From IMG/VR virus record IMGVR_UViG_3300026235_000001, positions 1 to 39,959 of that record: a DNA stretch of 39,959 bases. One strand, given 5' to 3'. Origin of the DNA: a virus. The translations under genes were made by a program, and so were the position numbers. Below the pieces are notes generated by a model, which did not search any database, was not told where the DNA came from, and saw only the letters and a list, made by a program, of their open reading frames with translations. Of the stretch, positions 30,663 through 34,315 are shown in pieces (within the stretch, counting starts at the first letter, position 1; each line of letters opens with the position of its first letter).

Positions 30663-30749
30663 ATGGCAACAGATAATGACATTATCTTATTTGCAGAAAA
30701 TCTAGCTGACGCTGGTGTCGGTACTGATGCAGATGGAAGTTGGGGAACT
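30663..30749 (+). CDS. Endolysin exon 1 (MATDNDIILFAENLADAGVGTDADGSWGT)
   Basis: SD aaggagg. The exon ends at a U that pairs as G-U with an internal guide sequence; an in-frame TAA follows immediately in the intron. Confidence 0.75.
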
Positions 30750-31792
30750 TAACAAACTGGGTTCCTAATCCCGAGAATTGCTGGGACACCCTGAAGCTAT
30801 GAAGGCTACAACGCAACCGGTAACGGTAAACGTGACACGCTTAAAAACATTCATAGTTGGGCAATCAGCAGCCGAGCCTCCTTGGTAAAAGAGGAGGAAG
30901 GTTCAACGACTAAGTGCTTGCAATCGCAAGACAGCACGGGACGTTTGTGGTATAATGGAGTTAGACGACAAAGGAGGGCTAACCCATGCAGACGATTGAA
31001 AATAAAGAGATTGGCGTTACTTTCAATTATTTAAAATTGCTAAAAATATCTGGCAAAGATAAAAACGGGAAGAAACTTGGGATATTCAAATGTACTTTGT
31101 GCGGAAATGAAAAAGAAATGAGGATAACCGAAGTAAGGAACGGATATTCAAAATCTTGTGGGTGTCTTTCAAAACTCAAAAACAAAGAAAGACTGAAAAA
31201 GCACGGGCTGACTGGAACGAAAACCCATAGCGCTTGGAAAGCGATGCGACAAAGATGCACAAATCCAAACTATTCAAGTTTTCACCGATACGGCGGCCGT
31301 GGTATAACTTATGCTGATGAATGGGAAGACTTCTCCCAGTTCTATAAAGACATGGGAGAACCGCCTTCTAGCAAGCATCAACTGGACAGAATAGACAATA
31401 ATGGGAACTACTGCAAAGAAAATTGCAGATGGGCTCTACCTCAAGAAAACTGCAATAATAGAGGTGTTTACAAAAATAAAACTGGTTACACCGGCGTTAG
31501 TGAAAATACTAGCAAGGCTGGTCGGTATTCGTCTTATTTTTGTGTAAATAGAAAACATATCCAAGTTGGAACTTTCTCAACTCCAGAAGAAGCATACAAA
31601 GCCAGAATTGAAGCGATAAAAAAATACAATAAAGAAAATAATGCCAACTTAAAATATATAGAATTCGAAGAATGTCACAAAACGAAGATATAGTCTCATC
31701 TTACGTGAAAGCGTAAGCTCATAAAAGAGGGAGCACGTTATACAGTCAATCCAAGAAATTGTTTTGAGGAGAGACGTGCTTTTAAGATAATG
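30750..31792 (+). mobile_element. Group I intron interrupting the lysin gene
   Basis: P1: exon GGAACU (30744-30749) pairs with GGUUCC (30760-30765), ending in U-G. The terminal G is at 31792. Joining the exons restores the CHAP motif GSWGT|QCVDLPN. The intron contains an HNH ORF and several GC stems. Confidence 0.75.
30986..31693 (+). CDS. Intron-encoded HNH homing endonuclease with a C-terminal AP2-like DNA-binding domain
   Basis: HQLDRIDNNGNYCKENCRWALPQENCNNR (HNH). GYTGVS...GRYSSYF...IQVGTFSTPEEAYKARIEAI (AP2-like). It has its own TGGTATAAT box at 30948-30956. Confidence 0.8.
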   Translation: MQTIENKEIGVTFNYLKLLKISGKDKNGKKLGIFKCTLCGNEKEMRITEVRNGYSKSCGCLSKLKNKERLKKHGLTGTKTHSAWKAMRQRCTNPNYSSFHRYGGRGITYADEWEDFSQFYKDMGEPPSSKHQLDRIDNNGNYCKENCRWALPQENCNNRGVYKNKTGYTGVSENTSKAGRYSSYFCVNRKHIQVGTFSTPEEAYKARIEAIKKYNKENNANLKYIEFEECHKTKI

Positions 31793-32452
31793 CAATGTGT
31801 TGACCTGCCCAACTCTATCTCAATTAACTTCTTTGGCCGTGCCCTTTGGGGGAACGCCATTGACTTGCTAAACTCAGCGGCGGAAGCAGGCTATGAAGTC
31901 GAGTATAATCAAGAAGGGAACCTTGATAGCCGTCCACGTCGTGGGGCTGTATTCGTCATGGATACTACTTACATCGCAGGGCATCCATACGGGCACACTG
32001 GCTTGGTTATCGAAGATTCAGACGGCTACACCATGCGAACTATCGAGCAGAATATTGACGGCAATGCTGATAGCTTATACGTTGGCGGACCTGCTCGTTA
32101 CAATACACGCAATTTTGACGGTATTGTAGGTTGGTTCTACTTCCCAACGGATAATCAATCACAAGCCCCTGCACCAACACCGACACCGTTTGATGGTATA
32201 ATTACTATTAACGAGGAAACCGGGACGTTTACGGTTGAAGTATCAGCTCTTAACGTTCGAGCTGGTGCTGGTCTAGGTGCTGAAATCGTAGCAGTTTATG
32301 GAGCCGGTGAAACTATCAACTATGACGGCTGGTGTGACGTTGACGGCTATATCTGGATCAGTTACATTGGCGGGTCTGGAAATCGTCGCTATGTCGCAGT
32401 TGGACAATCAGAGAATGGGCGGCGTGTAACGTCATTCGGTTCATTCGCTTAA
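31793..32452 (+). CDS. Endolysin exon 2: rest of the CHAP domain plus a C-terminal SH3b-like cell-wall-binding domain
   Basis: QCVDLPN (catalytic Cys), GHPYGHTGLV (His), a PAPTPTP linker and VRAGAGLGAEIVAVYGAGETINYDGWCDVDGYIWISY (SH3-like). Confidence 0.85.
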   Translation, partial: QCVDLPNSISINFFGRALWGNAIDLLNSAAEAGYEVEYNQEGNLDSRPRRGAVFVMDTTYIAGHPYGHTGLVIEDSDGYTMRTIEQNIDGNADSLYVGGPARYNTRNFDGIVGWFYFPTDNQSQAPAPTPTPFDGIITINEETGTFTVEVSALNVRAGAGLGAEIVAVYGAGETINYDGWCDVDGYIWISYIGGSGNRRYVAVGQSENGRRVTSFGSFA

Positions 32453-32539
32453 TCAAGACCACGAAAACTATAAAATAAAAAAAGGAGTATATCACCTCCC
32501 CTCACACTGCAGTAGGGATACCATGGCAGTAGTGGTCGA

Positions 32540-32567
32540 AGCCTCAGCATTGTGCTGGGGCTTTTTT
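32540..32567 (+). terminator. Terminator downstream of the lysin gene
   Basis: Stem agcctcagca/tgctggggct (one G-U), then tttttt. Confidence 0.75.
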
Positions 32568-32570
32568 ATT

Positions 32571-32627
32571 TGGTATAATATATCTAGGAAAGTGCCAGTA
32601 ACTCTACGGGGTCTGGTGCGTTTTTTT
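32571..32627 (+). ncRNA. Mini transcription unit 1: extended -10 promoter + hairpin + T-run
   Basis: Promoter tggtataatata 32571-32582. Stem gtgccag 32592-32598 / ctggtgc 32613-32619. T7 at 32621-32627. No ORF. Confidence 0.5.
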
Positions 32628-32635
32628 ATTTTTTG

Positions 32636-32710
32636 TGCTATAATATACATGAAATGACAATCCCCCTGCATCCACTATGGACAGATACGATCTGACGCAG
32701 GGCTTTTTTT
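32636..32710 (+). ncRNA. Mini transcription unit 2
   Basis: Promoter tgctataatata 32636-32647. Stem ccctgc 32664-32669 / gcaggg 32697-32702 with an inner cagat-acg-atctg hairpin. T7 at 32704-32710. Confidence 0.5.
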
Positions 32711-32711
32711 G

Positions 32712-32771
32712 TGTTATAATATAAGTCCATCATAGGCAAAGAGCTACGAGGTTATCTCATAGCTCTTTTTT
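32712..32771 (+). ncRNA. Mini transcription unit 3
   Basis: Promoter tgttataatata 32712-32723. Stem agagcta 32740-32746 / tagctct 32760-32766, then a T-run. Confidence 0.5.
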
Positions 32772-32849
32772 ATATTTGTGATTTCAATGGAGAAGTGATA
32801 ACATAGATTTCGGAATACTTGGCGTTATTTCGATAATTTCTCGAACTGC

Positions 32850-32873
32850 CCCGGCTTTATGTCGGGTTTTTTT
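32850..32873 (+). terminator. Fourth consecutive terminator (end of a promoter-poor unit 4)
   Basis: Stem cccggc 32850-32855 / gtcggg 32861-32866, then T7. Confidence 0.65.
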
Positions 32874-32910
32874 ATTTTGCAAAAAAACTTAAATTTCTTT
32901 ATAAAAAGTG

Positions 32911-32939
32911 TTGACAAACTATCATGTATGATATATAAT
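32911..32939 (+). promoter_or_regulatory. Strong sigma-70-type promoter of the acr-like operon
   Basis: TTGACA 32911-32916, a 17-bp spacer, TATAAT 32934-32939. Confidence 0.75.
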
Positions 32940-32972: not shown

Positions 32973-33317
32973 ATGAAATCACAAGTAATGAGCCTAGCAT
33001 GGAAAATCTTCAAAAACGAAAAAAATGACGTAACTTTTTCTGAAGCATTGAAATTCGCTTGGAAAGCCGTTAAACGTCAAAAAATGGCGGATGATTTCTA
33101 CTTCTTCCGTTCTTCAAACGTTAAATTCCAAGGTGTTAAGAAATGGTTTGCTGAAAAAGAATTTCGTGGACGCAACAAGAAAGACTTGGCGTTCATGTCA
33201 GTAAGTGCGATCAGTGTTAAAGGGTTGGTCGAAGAAACTGATAAAGCTGTTAAACTTGAAATCGTGACACCTTATGGAGTTTCTGCTAAATGGTACCCAA
33301 AAAGTGTAATTGCTTAA
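32973..33317 (+). CDS. Hypothetical 114-aa protein, first gene of the acr-like operon (candidate anti-defence protein)
   Basis: SD aaggaagg; no family recognised by eye; co-transcribed with the AcrIIA6-like gene. Confidence 0.6.
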   Translation: MKSQVMSLAWKIFKNEKNDVTFSEALKFAWKAVKRQKMADDFYFFRSSNVKFQGVKKWFAEKEFRGRNKKDLAFMSVSAISVKGLVEETDKAVKLEIVTPYGVSAKWYPKSVIA

Positions 33318-33334: not shown

Positions 33335-33886
33335 ATGGAAATCAACAATGACATCAAAGAGTTAATCTTGGAATACGTGGGACGCTATTTCAAGTTTGAA
33401 AATGATTTTTACAAATTGCCGGGCATCAAATTTACCGATGCAAATTGGCAAAAATTCAAAAACGGTGATACATCCATCGAGAAAATGGGGGCGGCACGAG
33501 TAAACGCAATGCTCGACTGCCTATTCGATGATTTCGAGCTTGCTATGATTGGCAAGGCTCAAACTGATTATTACATTGATAACTCACTTAAATTGAACAT
33601 GCCATTTTATGCTTATTATGACATGTTCAAAAAACAACAGCTTCTAAAATGGATTGAGAATAGTCGTGAAGACATCATCGGAGGGGCTGGCAGAATGTAC
33701 ACAGCGGGCGGTAATTGGATTTCTAGCGCTTATTTAGAGATCGCATTAGAATCTAGTTCCATCGGTGGCGGTGGCTATATGCTTCAAATGCGGTTCAAAA
33801 ACTACTCAAGAGACCCTAGACCGATTCCAGCAGGCCACCAAAATCGTCTCGAATGGATTGAAAACAACTTGGAGAATATCCGATAA
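33335..33886 (+). CDS. acrIIA6: AcrIIA6-like anti-CRISPR protein (183 aa)
   Basis: Start at ATG 33335 (SD aaaggag 7 nt upstream) gives 183 aa. The sequence MEINNDIKELILEYVGRYFKFENDFYKLPGIKFTDANWQKF...NRLEWIENNLENIR matches my recollection of AcrIIA6 from S. thermophilus phages in both sequence and length. This needs BLASTP confirmation. Confidence 0.55.
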   Translation: MEINNDIKELILEYVGRYFKFENDFYKLPGIKFTDANWQKFKNGDTSIEKMGAARVNAMLDCLFDDFELAMIGKAQTDYYIDNSLKLNMPFYAYYDMFKKQQLLKWIENSREDIIGGAGRMYTAGGNWISSAYLEIALESSSIGGGGYMLQMRFKNYSRDPRPIPAGHQNRLEWIENNLENIR

Positions 33887-34083: not shown

Positions 34084-34284
34084 CTATTCTTCCGTGTATT
34101 CATATTTCCTTGTAGCATAAACAATTTCTTTCCCGCAAAACATGCAATATTTCAGAGTCGGACCCACCCAAGAGTAATGCTCACCGCAATTTGTTTCTAT
34201 TTGATTCACTTTGGCAAAAAGCAATGTTTCTATATCTTTGGTTTTGTCATCATAAATCTCTATTGTGTGTTTACAAACATCCAT
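34084..34284 (-). CDS. Small Cys/His-rich (zinc-ribbon-like) protein
   Basis: 66 aa with CxH...CGEH...CMFC. Strong SD aaggag. Its own TGGTATAAT promoter on the minus strand occupies 34307-34315. Confidence 0.6.
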   Translation of the reverse strand: MDVCKHTIEIYDDKTKDIETLLFAKVNQIETNCGEHYSWVGPTLKYCMFCGKEIVYATRKYEYTEE

Positions 34285-34306
34285 CTCGATTTCTCCTTTT
34301 TGTTTT

Positions 34307-34315
34307 ATTATACCA
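34307..34315 (-). promoter_or_regulatory. Extended -10 promoter TGGTATAAT for the 66-aa ORF
   Basis: The minus strand reads ttttttgaaatggtataataaaacaaaaaggagaaatcgagATG. Confidence 0.5.

What the first reader, a model, noticed from the sequence alone, without database searches (positions are those of the whole stretch)
32540..32880. Ladder of three to four miniature promoter-hairpin-terminator units between the lysin and the acr-like operon (candidate small RNAs)
Seen in the sequence: three back-to-back units of identical architecture follow the lysin terminator (32540-32567). In each, the T-run of the preceding terminator is followed by an extended -10 promoter TGnTATAATATA: tggtataatata 32571-32582, tgctataatata 32636-32647, tgttataatata 32712-32723. 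A short leader, a hairpin and a T-run come next. The stems are 32592-32598/32613-32619; 32664-32669/32697-32702 with an inner cagat-acg-atctg; and 32740-32746/32760-32766. The predicted RNAs are about 40-60 nt with no ORF. A fourth unit with a degenerate promoter ends at terminator 32850-32873. The acr-operon promoter then follows and carries the same TATAATATA -10 context. The same TGGTATAAT box also precedes the minus-strand 66-aa ORF (34307-34315) and the intron HNH ORF (30948-30956). Established knowledge: phages cluster anti-defence genes, and RNA anti-CRISPRs built from solitary repeat-like units have been described. Speculative, from repeat and tracrRNA sequences as I remember them: unit 1 contains agtaactctac, 10 of 11 identical to AGTAACTGTAC in the S. 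thermophilus CRISPR1 repeat. The unit 3 stem AGAGCUA/UAGCUCU equals the start of the streptococcal type II-A repeat GUUUUAGAGCUA plus its complement. Unit 2 (gaaatgacaatccccctgcat..tatgg..gcagggcttttt) loosely resembles the GAAATCAACACCCTGTCATTTTATGGCAGGGTGTTTT 3' part of the St1Cas9 tracrRNA. Each resemblance alone is within chance (roughly 0.1 expected hits), so the CRISPR link is only a hypothesis. The tandem architecture is not in doubt.
Basis: partly seen in the sequence, partly recalled or inferred. Interest (0 to 1): 0.8.

Follow-up and report, generated by a model that had tools for sequence, protein, structure and literature searches.

The report
Orphan AbiD/F antitoxin-like RNA gene ladder
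Between its lysin gene and its anti-CRISPR operon, this Streptococcus thermophilus-type phage carries four tiny stand-alone RNA genes; at least two are toxin-less copies of the small RNAs that normally keep AbiD/AbiF abortive-infection toxins switched off, so they probably disarm that host defence.

Summary
Three exact TGNTATAATATA extended -10 boxes lie at 32571, 32636 and 32712, where 0.02 are expected by chance. Each is followed by a hairpin and a T-run, and a fourth unit has a weaker TGNTAnnAT box. The CRISPR/tracrRNA resemblance does not survive a shuffle test.

The units belong to conserved, combinatorially shuffled promoter-RNA-terminator cassette families. These sit after the lysin terminator in hundreds of S. 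thermophilus phages, both virulent and temperate, and none matches an Rfam family.

- **Unit 2** is a three-helix RNA with covariation. The same RNA lies 17-34 nt upstream of 10 of 10 Abi_2 (AbiD/AbiF) genes chosen by protein similarity alone.
- **Unit 1** is a hairpin with an invariant CUCUACG loop. It is the core of the RNA upstream of a second Abi_2 clade (4 of 4).
- **Units 3 and 4** have no identified partner.

Published work shows that such upstream RNAs are type III-like antitoxins that neutralise AbiF in cis and in trans. No Abi_2 gene occurs in the window or in 89 related phage loci, while AbiD is the commonest accessory defence of S. thermophilus.

Best reading: these are orphan antitoxin RNAs used as anti-Abi decoys. 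That function is inferred, not shown.

The parts
32453..32570 (+). Conserved lysin 3' UTR ending in the lysin intrinsic terminator (stem-loop 32538-32564, then a T-run). It is the upstream anchor of the cassette ladder in all related phages.
   Evidence: Terminator scan. Fold -31.4 kcal/mol, z -4.5. Nearly invariant in Sfi19 and TP-J34. A 25-mer from it hits 47 IMG/VR contigs.
32571..32582 (+). Unit 1 extended -10 promoter, TGGTATAATATA.
   Evidence: The same box heads this cassette in all relatives.
32586..32627 (+). Unit 1 RNA (type A, about 40 nt). Outer stem 32592-32598/32613-32619, inner stem 32601-32604/32609-32612, UACG loop, invariant CUCUACGGGG at 32602-32611, T7 at 32621-32627. It is an orphan copy of the hairpin that forms the core of the RNA upstream of clade-A Abi_2 genes.
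   Evidence: Fold. Covariation on A4: 94.7% paired, 24 cells with changes on both sides, 0 of 500 shuffles reach the score. Upstream of Abi_2 genes in L311, L308, L344, L345 and L398 and in 4 of 4 genes picked by protein similarity.
32636..32647 (+). Unit 2 extended -10 promoter, TGCTATAATATA.
32651..32710 (+). Unit 2 RNA (type B, about 60 nt). Leader AUGAAAUGACAAUCC; P1 32664-32669/32697-32702; P2 32671-32674/32678-32681; P3 CAGAUACGAUCUG 32682-32694, near-invariant; T7 at 32704-32710. It is an orphan copy of the RNA found directly upstream of clade-B Abi_2 genes.
   Evidence: Covariance model R1 hits 32656-32708 at 75.1 bits, E 7e-18. Covariation in P1 and P2: 5 pairs and 24 cells with changes on both sides, 0 of 500 shuffles. 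R1 hits lie 17-34 nt upstream of 10 of 10 Abi_2 genes picked by protein similarity.
32712..32723 (+). Unit 3 extended -10 promoter, TGTTATAATATA.
32727..32771 (+). Unit 3 RNA (type C, about 45 nt). Leader with CCAUCAUAGGCAAAG, hairpin 32738-32746/32760-32768, T-run 32766-32771. Conserved family with no identified partner.
   Evidence: Fold z -4.1. 87 distinct copies, almost all in S. thermophilus-type phages and nearly always followed by type D or by the prophage end.
32796..32804 (+). Unit 4 weaker extended -10 box, TGATAACAT (family consensus AAGTGNTAnnAT).
32811..32873 (+). Unit 4 RNA (type D, about 60 nt). Sequence-conserved 5' domain GGAAUACUUGGCRUC..UUUCGAU.AAU.UCUCGAACUG, then terminator 32850-32866 and a T-run to 32873. 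No identified partner.
   Evidence: Terminator scan. Family alignment with a covarying terminator stem.
32911..32939 (+). Consensus sigma-A early promoter of the acr operon (TTGACA-17-TATAAT), with the palindrome ATCATGTATGAT (32921-32932) in the spacer. It marks the downstream boundary of the ladder.
   Evidence: Conserved in Sfi19 and TP-J34. This promoter class is described in PMC13575424.
32973..33886 (+). Anti-CRISPR operon: 114-aa ORF of unknown function (32973-33317) and AcrIIA6 (33335-33886).
   Evidence: ORF list. AcrIIA6 matches PDB 6EYY/6EYX at E 3e-105.

Best explanation
The ladder is a row of autonomous small-RNA genes, each with an extended -10 promoter, a 40-65 nt structured RNA and an intrinsic terminator. 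The units come from a pool of cassette families that S. thermophilus phages shuffle in the slot between the lysin terminator and the early/anti-CRISPR operon or the prophage end.

Units 1 and 2 are toxin-less ('orphan') homologues of the short RNAs encoded immediately upstream of two different clades of Abi_2 (AbiD/AbiD1/AbiF) HEPN toxin genes. In those systems the promoter-proximal, terminated RNA is a type III-like antitoxin. It binds the toxin and blocks its RNase site, and it works in trans.

The proposed mechanism is as follows. The phage transcribes these RNAs from strong constitutive promoters as soon as its DNA enters the cell, or from the prophage. The RNAs top up or replace the host's own antitoxin RNA. 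AbiD/F toxins therefore stay neutralised during infection and abortive infection is prevented. This would be an RNA decoy placed next to the protein anti-CRISPRs.

**Shown:** the architecture, conservation, covariation, homology to the Abi_2-linked RNAs, absence of the toxin gene, and presence of AbiD in the host species.

**Inferred:** transcription of the units, antitoxin activity of these two RNA classes, and neutralisation of host AbiD.

Units 3 and 4 are assumed to be further members of the same kind, with partners not yet identified.
For: **Real, non-random architecture.**

**Conservation and modular shuffling.** 345 phage records match the region. There are 127 distinct cassettes in families. 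Temperate contigs carry 5 cassettes in a row and no protein gene before the prophage end.

**Not coding and not in Rfam.**

**Unit 2.**
- The three-helix fold is the MFE in about 18 of 23 variants.
- Covariation: 95.6% paired, 24 compensatory cells, 0 of 500 shuffles, and slid controls at or below 58% paired.
- Model R1 finds the same RNA on the same strand 17-34 nt before the start codon of 10 of 10 Abi_2 genes chosen only by protein similarity. These are L290, S. agalactiae, E. faecium, Listeria, S. infantarius, Lactobacillus phage JNU_P5, Macrococcus, Javan151, Javan14, TP712 and Javan491, with E from 1e-8 to 5e-16.
- The two sequence subtypes seen in S. thermophilus phages match the RNAs of two Abi_2 subclades.

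**Unit 1.**
- The hairpin with the invariant CUCUACG loop lies upstream of a second Abi_2 clade, about 25% identical to the first.
- It is present in 4 of 4 genes picked by protein similarity.
- Covariation is shown.

**Abi_2 identity.** These proteins match PF07751 and are homologous to PbAbiF, PDB 8VZ6, at E 4e-17.

**Orphan status.** There is no Abi_2 gene in the window or in 0 of 89 loci with the S. thermophilus-type lysin terminator. None of the 30 phage records encoding this Abi_2 is an S. thermophilus phage.

**Literature.**
- RCd22, upstream of a prophage abiF, neutralises the toxin in cis and in trans by direct binding (PMC12373285).
- AbiFr blocks the HEPN site (PMC12737573).
- AbiD/F genes need their upstream 'strong promoter and terminator' (PMC11381338).
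- The abiD1 promoter yields an abundant 50-nt terminated RNA (PMC2661086).
- AbiD is the most prevalent accessory defence of S. thermophilus: 74 of 263 strains, 15 homologues, narrow activity (PMC12322248; PMC11514479).
Against: - No transcript data exist for these units.
- No experiment shows that type A or type B RNAs are antitoxins. This is extrapolated from RCd22, AbiFr and AbiD1, whose Rfam motif (abiF, RF03085) matches neither type A nor type B even at E <= 10.
- I could not determine which RNA type precedes the AbiD genes of S. thermophilus itself, so the match between decoy and host toxin is untested.
- Unit 1 keeps only the inner hairpin of the longer clade-A RNA, which has an additional outer stem, and may be too short to bind.
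- Units 3 and 4 have no toxin association in any data set searched.
- The same position after the lysin is where prophages of other genera carry complete RNA-Abi_2 modules, so the orphans could descend from modules that lost their toxin.
- Many loci were fetched with RNA patterns. Only the 10/10 and 4/4 sets are unbiased.
Confidence: 0.55

Rival explanations
1. The units are relics. Ancestral phages carried complete RNA-Abi_2 (and other) moron modules after the lysin gene, the toxin genes were deleted, and what remains now serves only as a stack of terminators and promoters. That stack insulates late lysis transcription from the early/acr operon or from host DNA. The RNAs themselves have no target.
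For: - Complete promoter-RNA-terminator-Abi_2 modules occupy exactly this post-lysin position in prophages of Lactococcus, Streptococcus, Listeria, Macrococcus and Turicibacter.
- TP-J34 has a small ORF behind promoter 1 in place of unit 1.
- P1 of unit 2 and the outer stem of unit 1 double as terminator stems, and termination alone would select for their pairing.
Against: - The orphan copies keep perfect extended -10 boxes.
- P2 is maintained by compensatory changes and P3 is near-invariant, and neither is needed for termination. The alignment showing this consists almost entirely of orphan copies.
- The cassettes are present in virulent phages as well as temperate ones, and in at least 82 cultured phage genomes.
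- Two RNA subtypes matching two Abi_2 subclades are retained.
- 0 of 89 loci show a decaying Abi_2 pseudogene.
Confidence: 0.2
2. The orphan RNAs act for the benefit of the lysogen or of the phage against competitors. They pre-neutralise Abi_2 toxins brought in by other prophages or plasmids (anti-addiction or cross-immunity), or they stabilise the cell when a resident Abi_2 module is lost. They do not serve lytic infection.
For: - Temperate contigs carry the richest ladders, right at the prophage end in the classical lysogenic-conversion slot.
- Constitutive extended -10 promoters fit expression from a prophage.
- Solo chromosomal copies of type B exist in two streptococcal genomes next to pyrK.
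Against: [quoted passage not shown]
- Strictly virulent phages such as Sfi19 keep units 1-4.
Confidence: 0.12
3. The units are ordinary trans-acting base-pairing sRNAs, or protein sponges unrelated to Abi, that reprogramme host or phage gene expression. The homology of units 1 and 2 to Abi_2 leaders reflects reuse of a convenient promoter-terminator scaffold.
For: - Units 3, 4 and family E have sequence-conserved single-stranded stretches (CAUCAUAGG, GGAAUACUUGGC) that look like seed regions.
- Chimeras exist that join the family E leader to the type B 3' domain (L028 and L146).
Against: - No complementarity longer than 12 nt to any part of the phage's own genome, with all E-values at or above 0.1.
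- The conserved parts of units 1 and 2 are structured loops, not linear seeds.
- Host targets could not be searched.
Confidence: 0.1
4. One reading: the units are RNA anti-CRISPRs that mimic S. thermophilus CRISPR repeats or tracrRNA parts and sequester Cas9 or tracrRNA.
For: - The units lie directly upstream of an AcrIIA6 operon.
- The TP-J34 variant of unit 2 resembles the St1Cas9 tracrRNA tail, with Smith-Waterman score 24 against 13 in shuffles and p = 0.002 uncorrected.
Against: - For the window's own units no similarity or complementarity to any of four repeats and two tracrRNAs survives correction. The best is p = 0.026 over 84 tests.
- The stem sequences that resemble the tracrRNA (CCCUG/CAGGG) and the repeat covary freely across the family.
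- The family has a demonstrated different affiliation, with Abi_2 genes.
- The CRISPR2 and CRISPR4 repeats and the St3 tracrRNA were taken from memory. The CRISPR1 and CRISPR3 repeats and the St1 tracrRNA were confirmed in papers.
Confidence: 0.03

Closest known systems
AbiF/AbiFr and RCd22-AbiFCd: type III-like toxin-antitoxin systems of the Abi_2 (AbiD/F) family (Zilberzwige-Tal 2025 via PMC12737573; Saunier 2025, PMC12373285)
   Same: - A sigma-A promoter, a short structured RNA and an intrinsic terminator.
- Often placed right after the phage lysis genes.
- The RNA is conserved more strongly than the protein.
- Homologues of units 1 and 2 sit in exactly that relation to Abi_2 genes.
   Different: - The window copies have no toxin gene.
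- They are single hairpin or three-helix RNAs rather than two abiF-motif repeats.
- The Rfam abiF model RF03085 does not detect them.
- Antitoxin activity of types A and B is untested.
Lactococcal abiD1 leader: strong promoter plus terminator giving an abundant 50-nt RNA upstream of abiD1 (PMC2661086; PMC11381338)
   Same: The same miniature promoter-hairpin-terminator unit and the same RNA size class. It is required for the function and tolerability of the AbiD/F gene.
   Different: It is linked in cis to its toxin gene and lies on a plasmid. I could not compare its sequence with types A and B, because the figures are not held.
Pseudo-ToxI of phage phiTE against ToxIN (Blower et al. 2012, cited in PMC13064643), and protein antitoxin mimics such as T4 Dmd (the latter from my own knowledge)
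   Same: A phage-encoded copy of a host antitoxin that keeps an abortive-infection toxin neutralised. In the pseudo-ToxI case the copy is an RNA. This is the mechanism proposed here.
   Different: - ToxI is a tandem 36-nt repeat processed by ToxN.
- phiTE escape arises by repeat expansion or recombination under selection.
- Here the RNAs are stable, widespread, promoter-equipped genes of several unrelated families arranged in a row.
RNA anti-CRISPRs (Racrs, solitary repeat units; Camara-Wilpert et al. 2023, from my own knowledge)
   Same: Small non-coding decoys derived from the RNA component of a defence system, encoded near acr genes. AbiF is considered the ancestor of Cas13 and AbiFr a proto-crRNA.
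   Different: There is no similarity to any S. thermophilus CRISPR repeat or tracrRNA beyond chance. The cognate protein is an Abi toxin, not a Cas effector.
Prophage morons and the lysogenic conversion module between lysin and attR (TP-J34 paper, PMC3952083)
   Same: Autonomous promoter-cargo-terminator units in the post-lysin slot, exchanged horizontally.
   Different: The cargo is RNA only. Up to five units occur in a row. They are also kept by strictly virulent phages.

Membership tests
AbiD/F-associated antitoxin ncRNA (AbiFr / RCd22 / abiD1-leader class) | Encoded immediately upstream of an Abi_2 (PF07751) gene, on the same strand. | tested here: not met
   The window copies are orphans. 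There is no Abi_2 gene in the window or in 0 of 89 related loci. Their homologues elsewhere do meet the feature: type B in 10 of 10 and type A in 4 of 4 genes picked by protein similarity.
AbiD/F-associated antitoxin ncRNA (AbiFr / RCd22 / abiD1-leader class) | Own sigma-A promoter and intrinsic terminator delimiting a short RNA (about 50-130 nt). | tested here: met
   At sequence level only. Extended -10 boxes and hairpin-T6-7 terminators delimit 40-65 nt. Transcripts were not observed.
AbiD/F-associated antitoxin ncRNA (AbiFr / RCd22 / abiD1-leader class) | Conserved secondary structure supported by covariation. | tested here: met
   Type B on A3: 95.6% paired, 5 pairs and 24 cells with changes on both sides, 0 of 500 shuffles. 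Type A on A4: 94.7% paired, 4 pairs and 24 cells, 0 of 500 shuffles.
AbiD/F-associated antitoxin ncRNA (AbiFr / RCd22 / abiD1-leader class) | Matches the curated abiF RNA motif (Rfam RF03085). | tested here: not met
   No RF03085 hit at E <= 10 on the window ladder, on L128 (type B with Abi_2) or on L311 (type A with Abi_2). These are different RNA motifs serving other Abi_2 clades.
AbiD/F-associated antitoxin ncRNA (AbiFr / RCd22 / abiD1-leader class) | Binds the Abi_2 toxin and neutralises it, in cis and in trans. | not testable with these tools
   Known for RCd22 and AbiFr. It needs co-expression, pull-down or a structure for types A and B.
Canonical type III toxin-antitoxin locus (ToxIN/AbiQ/CptIN/TenpIN) | Tandem direct repeats of the antitoxin RNA followed by a terminator and the toxin gene. 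| tested here: not met
   The four units are unrelated to one another in sequence and share only the promoter box. There is no toxin gene downstream.
RNA anti-CRISPR / CRISPR repeat or tracrRNA mimic | Sequence or structural similarity, or complementarity, to the host's CRISPR repeat or tracrRNA beyond chance. | tested here: not met
   500 dinucleotide shuffles, 42 pairs and 2 measures. Nothing is significant after correction for the window units. Three of the six reference RNAs were taken from memory.
Any curated RNA family (Rfam 15) | A hit reaching the family's gathering score. | tested here: not met
   Only sub-threshold chance-level hits appear, such as SpF01 at 24 bits against a gathering score of 55 and rseX at 25 against 50. 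There are 0 hits at E <= 0.1 in 8 cassette-rich loci.
Moron (autonomous promoter-cargo-terminator unit in a phage genome) | Own promoter and terminator, inserted between conserved modules, variably present among relatives. | tested here: met
   Cassettes are present, absent or permuted among phages that share the flanking lysin terminator and acr promoter. The cargo is RNA rather than a protein gene.

The most novel reading that the evidence does not exclude
The post-lysin ladder of S. thermophilus phages is a multivalent, combinatorially shuffled arsenal of orphan antitoxin and decoy RNAs. Types A and B disarm two clades of AbiD/F. The remaining cassette families are decoys for further RNA-controlled defence systems, some not yet discovered. 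Those families include units 3 and 4, family E, and at least eight longer RNAs seen in temperate contigs. If so, the ladder can be read as a catalogue pointing to new RNA-regulated immune systems, and RNA-based counter-defence would be as prominent as protein Acrs in these industrially important phages.
Probability: 0.3. Interest if true: 0.9.

Novelty: new variant of a known kind. Interest (0 to 1): 0.78.

Why it matters
AbiD (Abi_2) is the most common accessory phage-defence system of S. thermophilus. It gives only narrow, weak protection, and no counter-defence is known. Recent surveys explicitly found no candidate anti-defence genes beyond Acrs in these phages (PMC12322248).

A conserved, unannotated set of orphan AbiD/F antitoxin-like RNA genes next to the acr operon offers a concrete and easily testable explanation. 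It would be a natural, widespread case of RNA antitoxin mimicry. Until now that strategy is known mainly from laboratory escape mutants of one Pectobacterium phage.

The analysis also defines two AbiD/F-associated RNA motifs that are absent from Rfam. It shows that the 'lysogenic conversion' slot of some streptococcal prophages is filled entirely with RNA genes. It matters in practice for designing phage-robust dairy starters that stack Abi systems with CRISPR.

Tried and rejected
- **CRISPR/tracrRNA mimicry.** Rejected by Smith-Waterman and duplex-energy tests against shuffles.
- **Known RNA families.** Rfam scans of the window, of 8 cassette-rich loci and of Abi-linked loci found nothing, including the abiF motif.
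- **Small peptides.** AUG-initiated frames in unit 2 are not conserved. The window reads AUG AAA UGA and Sfi19 has a different frame, and there is no Shine-Dalgarno sequence.
- **Antisense regulation of the phage's own genes.** No match longer than 12 nt.
- **Genome-collection scan with the 16-base P3 core.** Only 3 informative loci were recovered (L177, L186, L260).
- **Looking for a toxin partner of unit 3 with a hairpin pattern.** It returned almost only S. thermophilus-type phages.
- **My own interim idea that Abi-linked copies have weaker U-tracts than orphans.** This was wrong. Both have T6-7.
- **Finding S. thermophilus-named Abi_2 proteins among the homologues.** None was identifiable.
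- **Plasmid collection.** No S. thermophilus Abi_2.
- **Older Sfi19/Sfi21 transcription-map papers.** They are not held.
Full report
**What is in the sequence**

The window is a Streptococcus thermophilus-type siphophage. The lysin gene carries a group I intron with an HNH ORF and ends at 32452. A 114-aa ORF and AcrIIA6 follow from 32973; AcrIIA6 matches PDB 6EYY at E 3e-105. A serine integrase lies on the minus strand.

The motif TGNTATAATATA occurs three times in 40 kb, only here, where 0.02 occurrences are expected. Each box is followed by a short leader, a stable hairpin and 6-7 T. A fourth unit has a TGATAACAT box and the terminator 32850-32866.

**The units are members of mobile cassette families**

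The region matches 345 phage records, almost all S. thermophilus phages, both virulent (Sfi19, Sfi11, the CHPC, SW and P76xx series) and temperate (Sfi21, O1205, TP-J34). Aligning Sfi19 and TP-J34 shows that the units behave as independent modules. Sfi19 has units 1-4 with an insertion. TP-J34 has a small ORF behind promoter 1 and then units 2 and 4.

I fetched 47 IMG/VR contigs with the lysin-terminator anchor, and more with unit-specific patterns. These yielded 127 distinct TGNTATAAT-to-T-run cassettes that fall into families:
- type A is unit 1;
- type B is unit 2;
- type C is unit 3;
- type D is unit 4;
- there is also a family E and several longer RNAs.

The families are combined in different orders in different phages. 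Some temperate contigs carry five cassettes in a row directly between the lysin terminator and the prophage end, with no protein gene at all.

None of the cassettes matches an Rfam family. They have no conserved ORF. GenBank records leave them unannotated or mislabel them as hypothetical proteins. A 2023 review of S. thermophilus phage-host interactions and a 2026 paper on this very 'variable region' do not mention non-coding RNAs.

**The CRISPR idea fails**

I confirmed the CRISPR1 and CRISPR3 repeats and the St1Cas9 tracrRNA from papers. The CRISPR2 and CRISPR4 repeats and the St3 tracrRNA came from memory. I compared every unit with every reference RNA for similarity (local alignment) and complementarity (duplex energy), against 500 dinucleotide shuffles.

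For the window's units the best result is unit 1 against the CRISPR1 repeat at p = 0.026, uncorrected for 84 tests. Unit 2 against the tracrRNA gives p = 0.32 and unit 3 against CRISPR3 gives p = 0.36. Only the TP-J34 variant of unit 2 reaches p = 0.002 against the tracrRNA tail, which also fails correction. The stems responsible for the resemblances covary freely, as shown next.

**Unit 2 is a structured RNA**

Twenty-three variants fold into the same three-helix shape: outer stem P1, hairpin P2 and hairpin P3. This holds although P1 occurs in at least nine different sequences, such as CCCUGC/GCAGGG, CCUCUC/GGGAGG, CCCAUGC/GCAUGGG and CCCGCAGU/ACUGCGG. P3 (CAGAUACGNUCUG) is nearly invariant.

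A covariance model (R1) recovers 45 copies. On that alignment:
- 95.6% of cells are paired;
- five pairs show changes on both sides, in 24 cells;
- none of 500 shuffles reaches the covariation score;
- sliding the partner by one to three columns drops pairing to 24-58%.

**The decisive lead: the same RNA sits in front of Abi_2 genes**

Outside S. thermophilus phages the unit 2 RNA turned up directly upstream of genes of the Abi_2 family (PF07751, AbiD/AbiD1/AbiF). Examples are Lactococcus prophage proPhi1 (L128), a Turicibacter prophage and three other phage contigs.

To test this without circularity I selected Abi_2 homologues by protein similarity alone and then scanned their flanks with R1. 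All of them carry an R1 hit on the same strand, ending 17-34 nt before the start codon, with E from 1e-8 to 5e-16. They are:
- L290;
- S. agalactiae;
- E. faecium;
- Listeria;
- S. infantarius;
- Lactobacillus phage JNU_P5;
- Macrococcus;
- prophages Javan151, Javan14 and Javan491;
- Lactococcus phage TP712.

In the most divergent member even P3 covaries (CAGU...ACUG). The two sequence subtypes of unit 2 found in S. thermophilus phages are GACAAUCC... and AUCAAUGG.... They correspond to the RNAs of two Abi_2 subclades, about 50% and 44% identical to the query. Solo chromosomal copies also exist next to pyrK in two streptococcal genomes.

**Unit 1 tells the same story for a second Abi_2 clade**

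The unit 1 hairpin has covarying stems around an invariant CUCUACGGGG loop capped by a UACG tetraloop. It recurs as the core of a longer RNA with a full sigma-70 promoter and an additional outer stem. That RNA ends at the ribosome-binding site of genes beginning MKPFKxLEEQ...NNYYNIINGYSKFFQ. These genes are Abi_2 proteins about 25% identical to the first clade.

Four further members of this clade were chosen by protein similarity: Lactobacillus delbrueckii, Limosilactobacillus reuteri, Lactobacillus johnsonii and a metagenomic contig. All four have the hairpin upstream, with CUCUACG invariant. On 17 sequences the hairpin is 94.7% paired, with 24 cells showing changes on both sides, and 0 of 500 shuffles reach the score. 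Temperate S. thermophilus-type phages also carry a longer orphan version that retains the outer stem (clusters 13 and 14).

**What these RNAs are known to do**

The Abi_2 protein of proPhi1 is homologous to PbAbiF, PDB 8VZ6 (E 4e-17). Published work establishes the following:
- AbiF is a HEPN RNase toxin. A cis-encoded ncRNA, AbiFr, binds it and blocks the active site.
- In a C. difficile prophage the ncRNA RCd22 lies between the lysis genes and abiF, with its own promoter and terminator. It neutralises the toxin in cis and in trans by direct binding.
- Lactococcal AbiD, AbiD1 and AbiF need their conserved upstream 'strong promoter and terminator', and are now counted as protein-plus-RNA systems.
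- The abiD1 promoter produces an abundant 50-nt terminated RNA.

The Rfam abiF motif RF03085 detects neither type A nor type B. These are therefore additional RNA classes serving other Abi_2 clades.

**Orphan status and the host side**

Neither the window nor any of 89 loci carrying the S. thermophilus-type lysin terminator encodes an Abi_2 protein. None of the 30 phage records that encode this Abi_2 is an S. thermophilus phage. Yet the orphan copies keep perfect promoters, compensatory changes in P1 and P2, and an invariant P3. This argues for selection on the RNA itself.

On the host side, AbiD/Abi2 is the most prevalent accessory defence of S. thermophilus. It occurs in 74 of 263 strains with 15 homologues and 'narrow activity', and in 8 of 27 strains in three groups about 25% identical to one another. 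No phage counter-measure is known.

**Interpretation**

The best-supported explanation is that units 1 and 2 are phage-borne orphan antitoxin RNAs. They would keep AbiD/F toxins neutralised during infection. This is functionally analogous to pseudo-ToxI of phiTE and, more loosely, to RNA anti-CRISPRs. They sit next to the protein Acr genes in the phage's anti-defence region.

Three things remain inferred: transcription of the units, antitoxin activity of these two RNA classes, and a match to the particular AbiD genes of S. thermophilus. I could not examine that last point.

The main rival is that the units are relics of decayed RNA-Abi_2 morons that now act only as terminators or insulators. 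The conserved promoters and the non-terminator helices speak against it, but it is not excluded.

Units 3 and 4 share the architecture and are conserved families. Type C is nearly always followed by type D or by the prophage end. No toxin partner, no intragenomic antisense target and no Rfam relative was found for either, so their role is open.

**Caveats**

- Many loci were retrieved with RNA patterns, so raw co-occurrence counts are biased (for example 26 type A and 18 type B among 49 Abi_2 loci). Only the 10/10 and 4/4 protein-first tests are unbiased.
- The covariance-model alignment leans towards the model structure, although the slid controls and independent MFE folds agree with it.
- An interim note that Abi-linked copies have weaker U-tracts was wrong and has been withdrawn.

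Noticed in passing
window 30682-31715: The lysin gene is interrupted by a group I intron (Rfam RF00028, 51.8 bits, above the gathering score). The intron carries a 235-aa HNH-type ORF (30986-31693) preceded by its own TGGTATAAT box at 30948. A second intron fragment matches at 31684-31715.
   Followed up: partly
window 32921-32932: The palindrome ATCATGTATGAT lies in the spacer of the 12/12 consensus acr-operon promoter and is conserved in Sfi19 and TP-J34. It is a likely operator for a repressor (Aca- or Cro-like) of the early/acr operon.
   Followed up: no
window 32453-32537: The lysin 3' UTR upstream of the terminator is almost invariant among distant phages and strongly structured (z -4.5 together with the terminator). 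A minus-strand terminator-like hairpin lies at 32503-32480. Its function is unknown.
   Followed up: no
window 34084-34315 (minus strand): A 66-aa Cys-rich ORF (34084-34284) sits behind a TGGTATAAT box (34307-34315). It is conserved as a cassette in several related contigs (cluster 6), so the same promoter type also drives a small protein moron.
   Followed up: no
L055, L023, L093; clusters 3, 4, 8, 9, 13 and 14: Temperate S. thermophilus- or S. salivarius-type contigs carry further, longer cassette RNAs (about 70-150 nt) with no Rfam match. Several share a YUACGGG motif. In these prophages the whole lysin-to-attachment-site 'lysogenic conversion' slot is RNA-only.
   Followed up: partly
L028 and L146; L027: Natural chimeras join the 5' leader of family E or F (GGUUUUGAGAAUAGCCUUCAUAGGUAGA) to the 3' three-helix domain of type B or to the type C hairpin. 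This shows recombination inside cassettes, not only between them.
   Followed up: no
L177 2201-3720 and L260 5865-5917: Solo chromosomal copies of the type B RNA lie just upstream of the PyrR leader and pyrK in two streptococcal genomes. In Streptococcus 'caviae' the copy follows a three-gene island ending in a SecB-like chaperone (PF02556), which may be a toxin-antitoxin-chaperone system.
   Followed up: partly
L290 1737-1810: A tRNA-like sequence (anticodon region CAT) lies immediately upstream of the type B RNA-Abi_2 module in this phage contig. I read it by eye and did not check it with ARAGORN.
   Followed up: no
L262: A distant Abi_2 homologue (about 30% identity) is preceded by a different GC-rich RNA with a similar branched terminator architecture (CCUCCC...GGGAGG). 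This hints at still more AbiD/F-associated RNA classes.
   Followed up: no
window 32706-32777: Unit 3 gives a sub-threshold match to the S. pyogenes sRNA family SpF01 (RF02425: 24.3 bits against a gathering score of 55, E 0.31 on a 341-nt search). This is probably chance, but the overall shape is similar (leader plus nested terminator hairpin).
   Followed up: no
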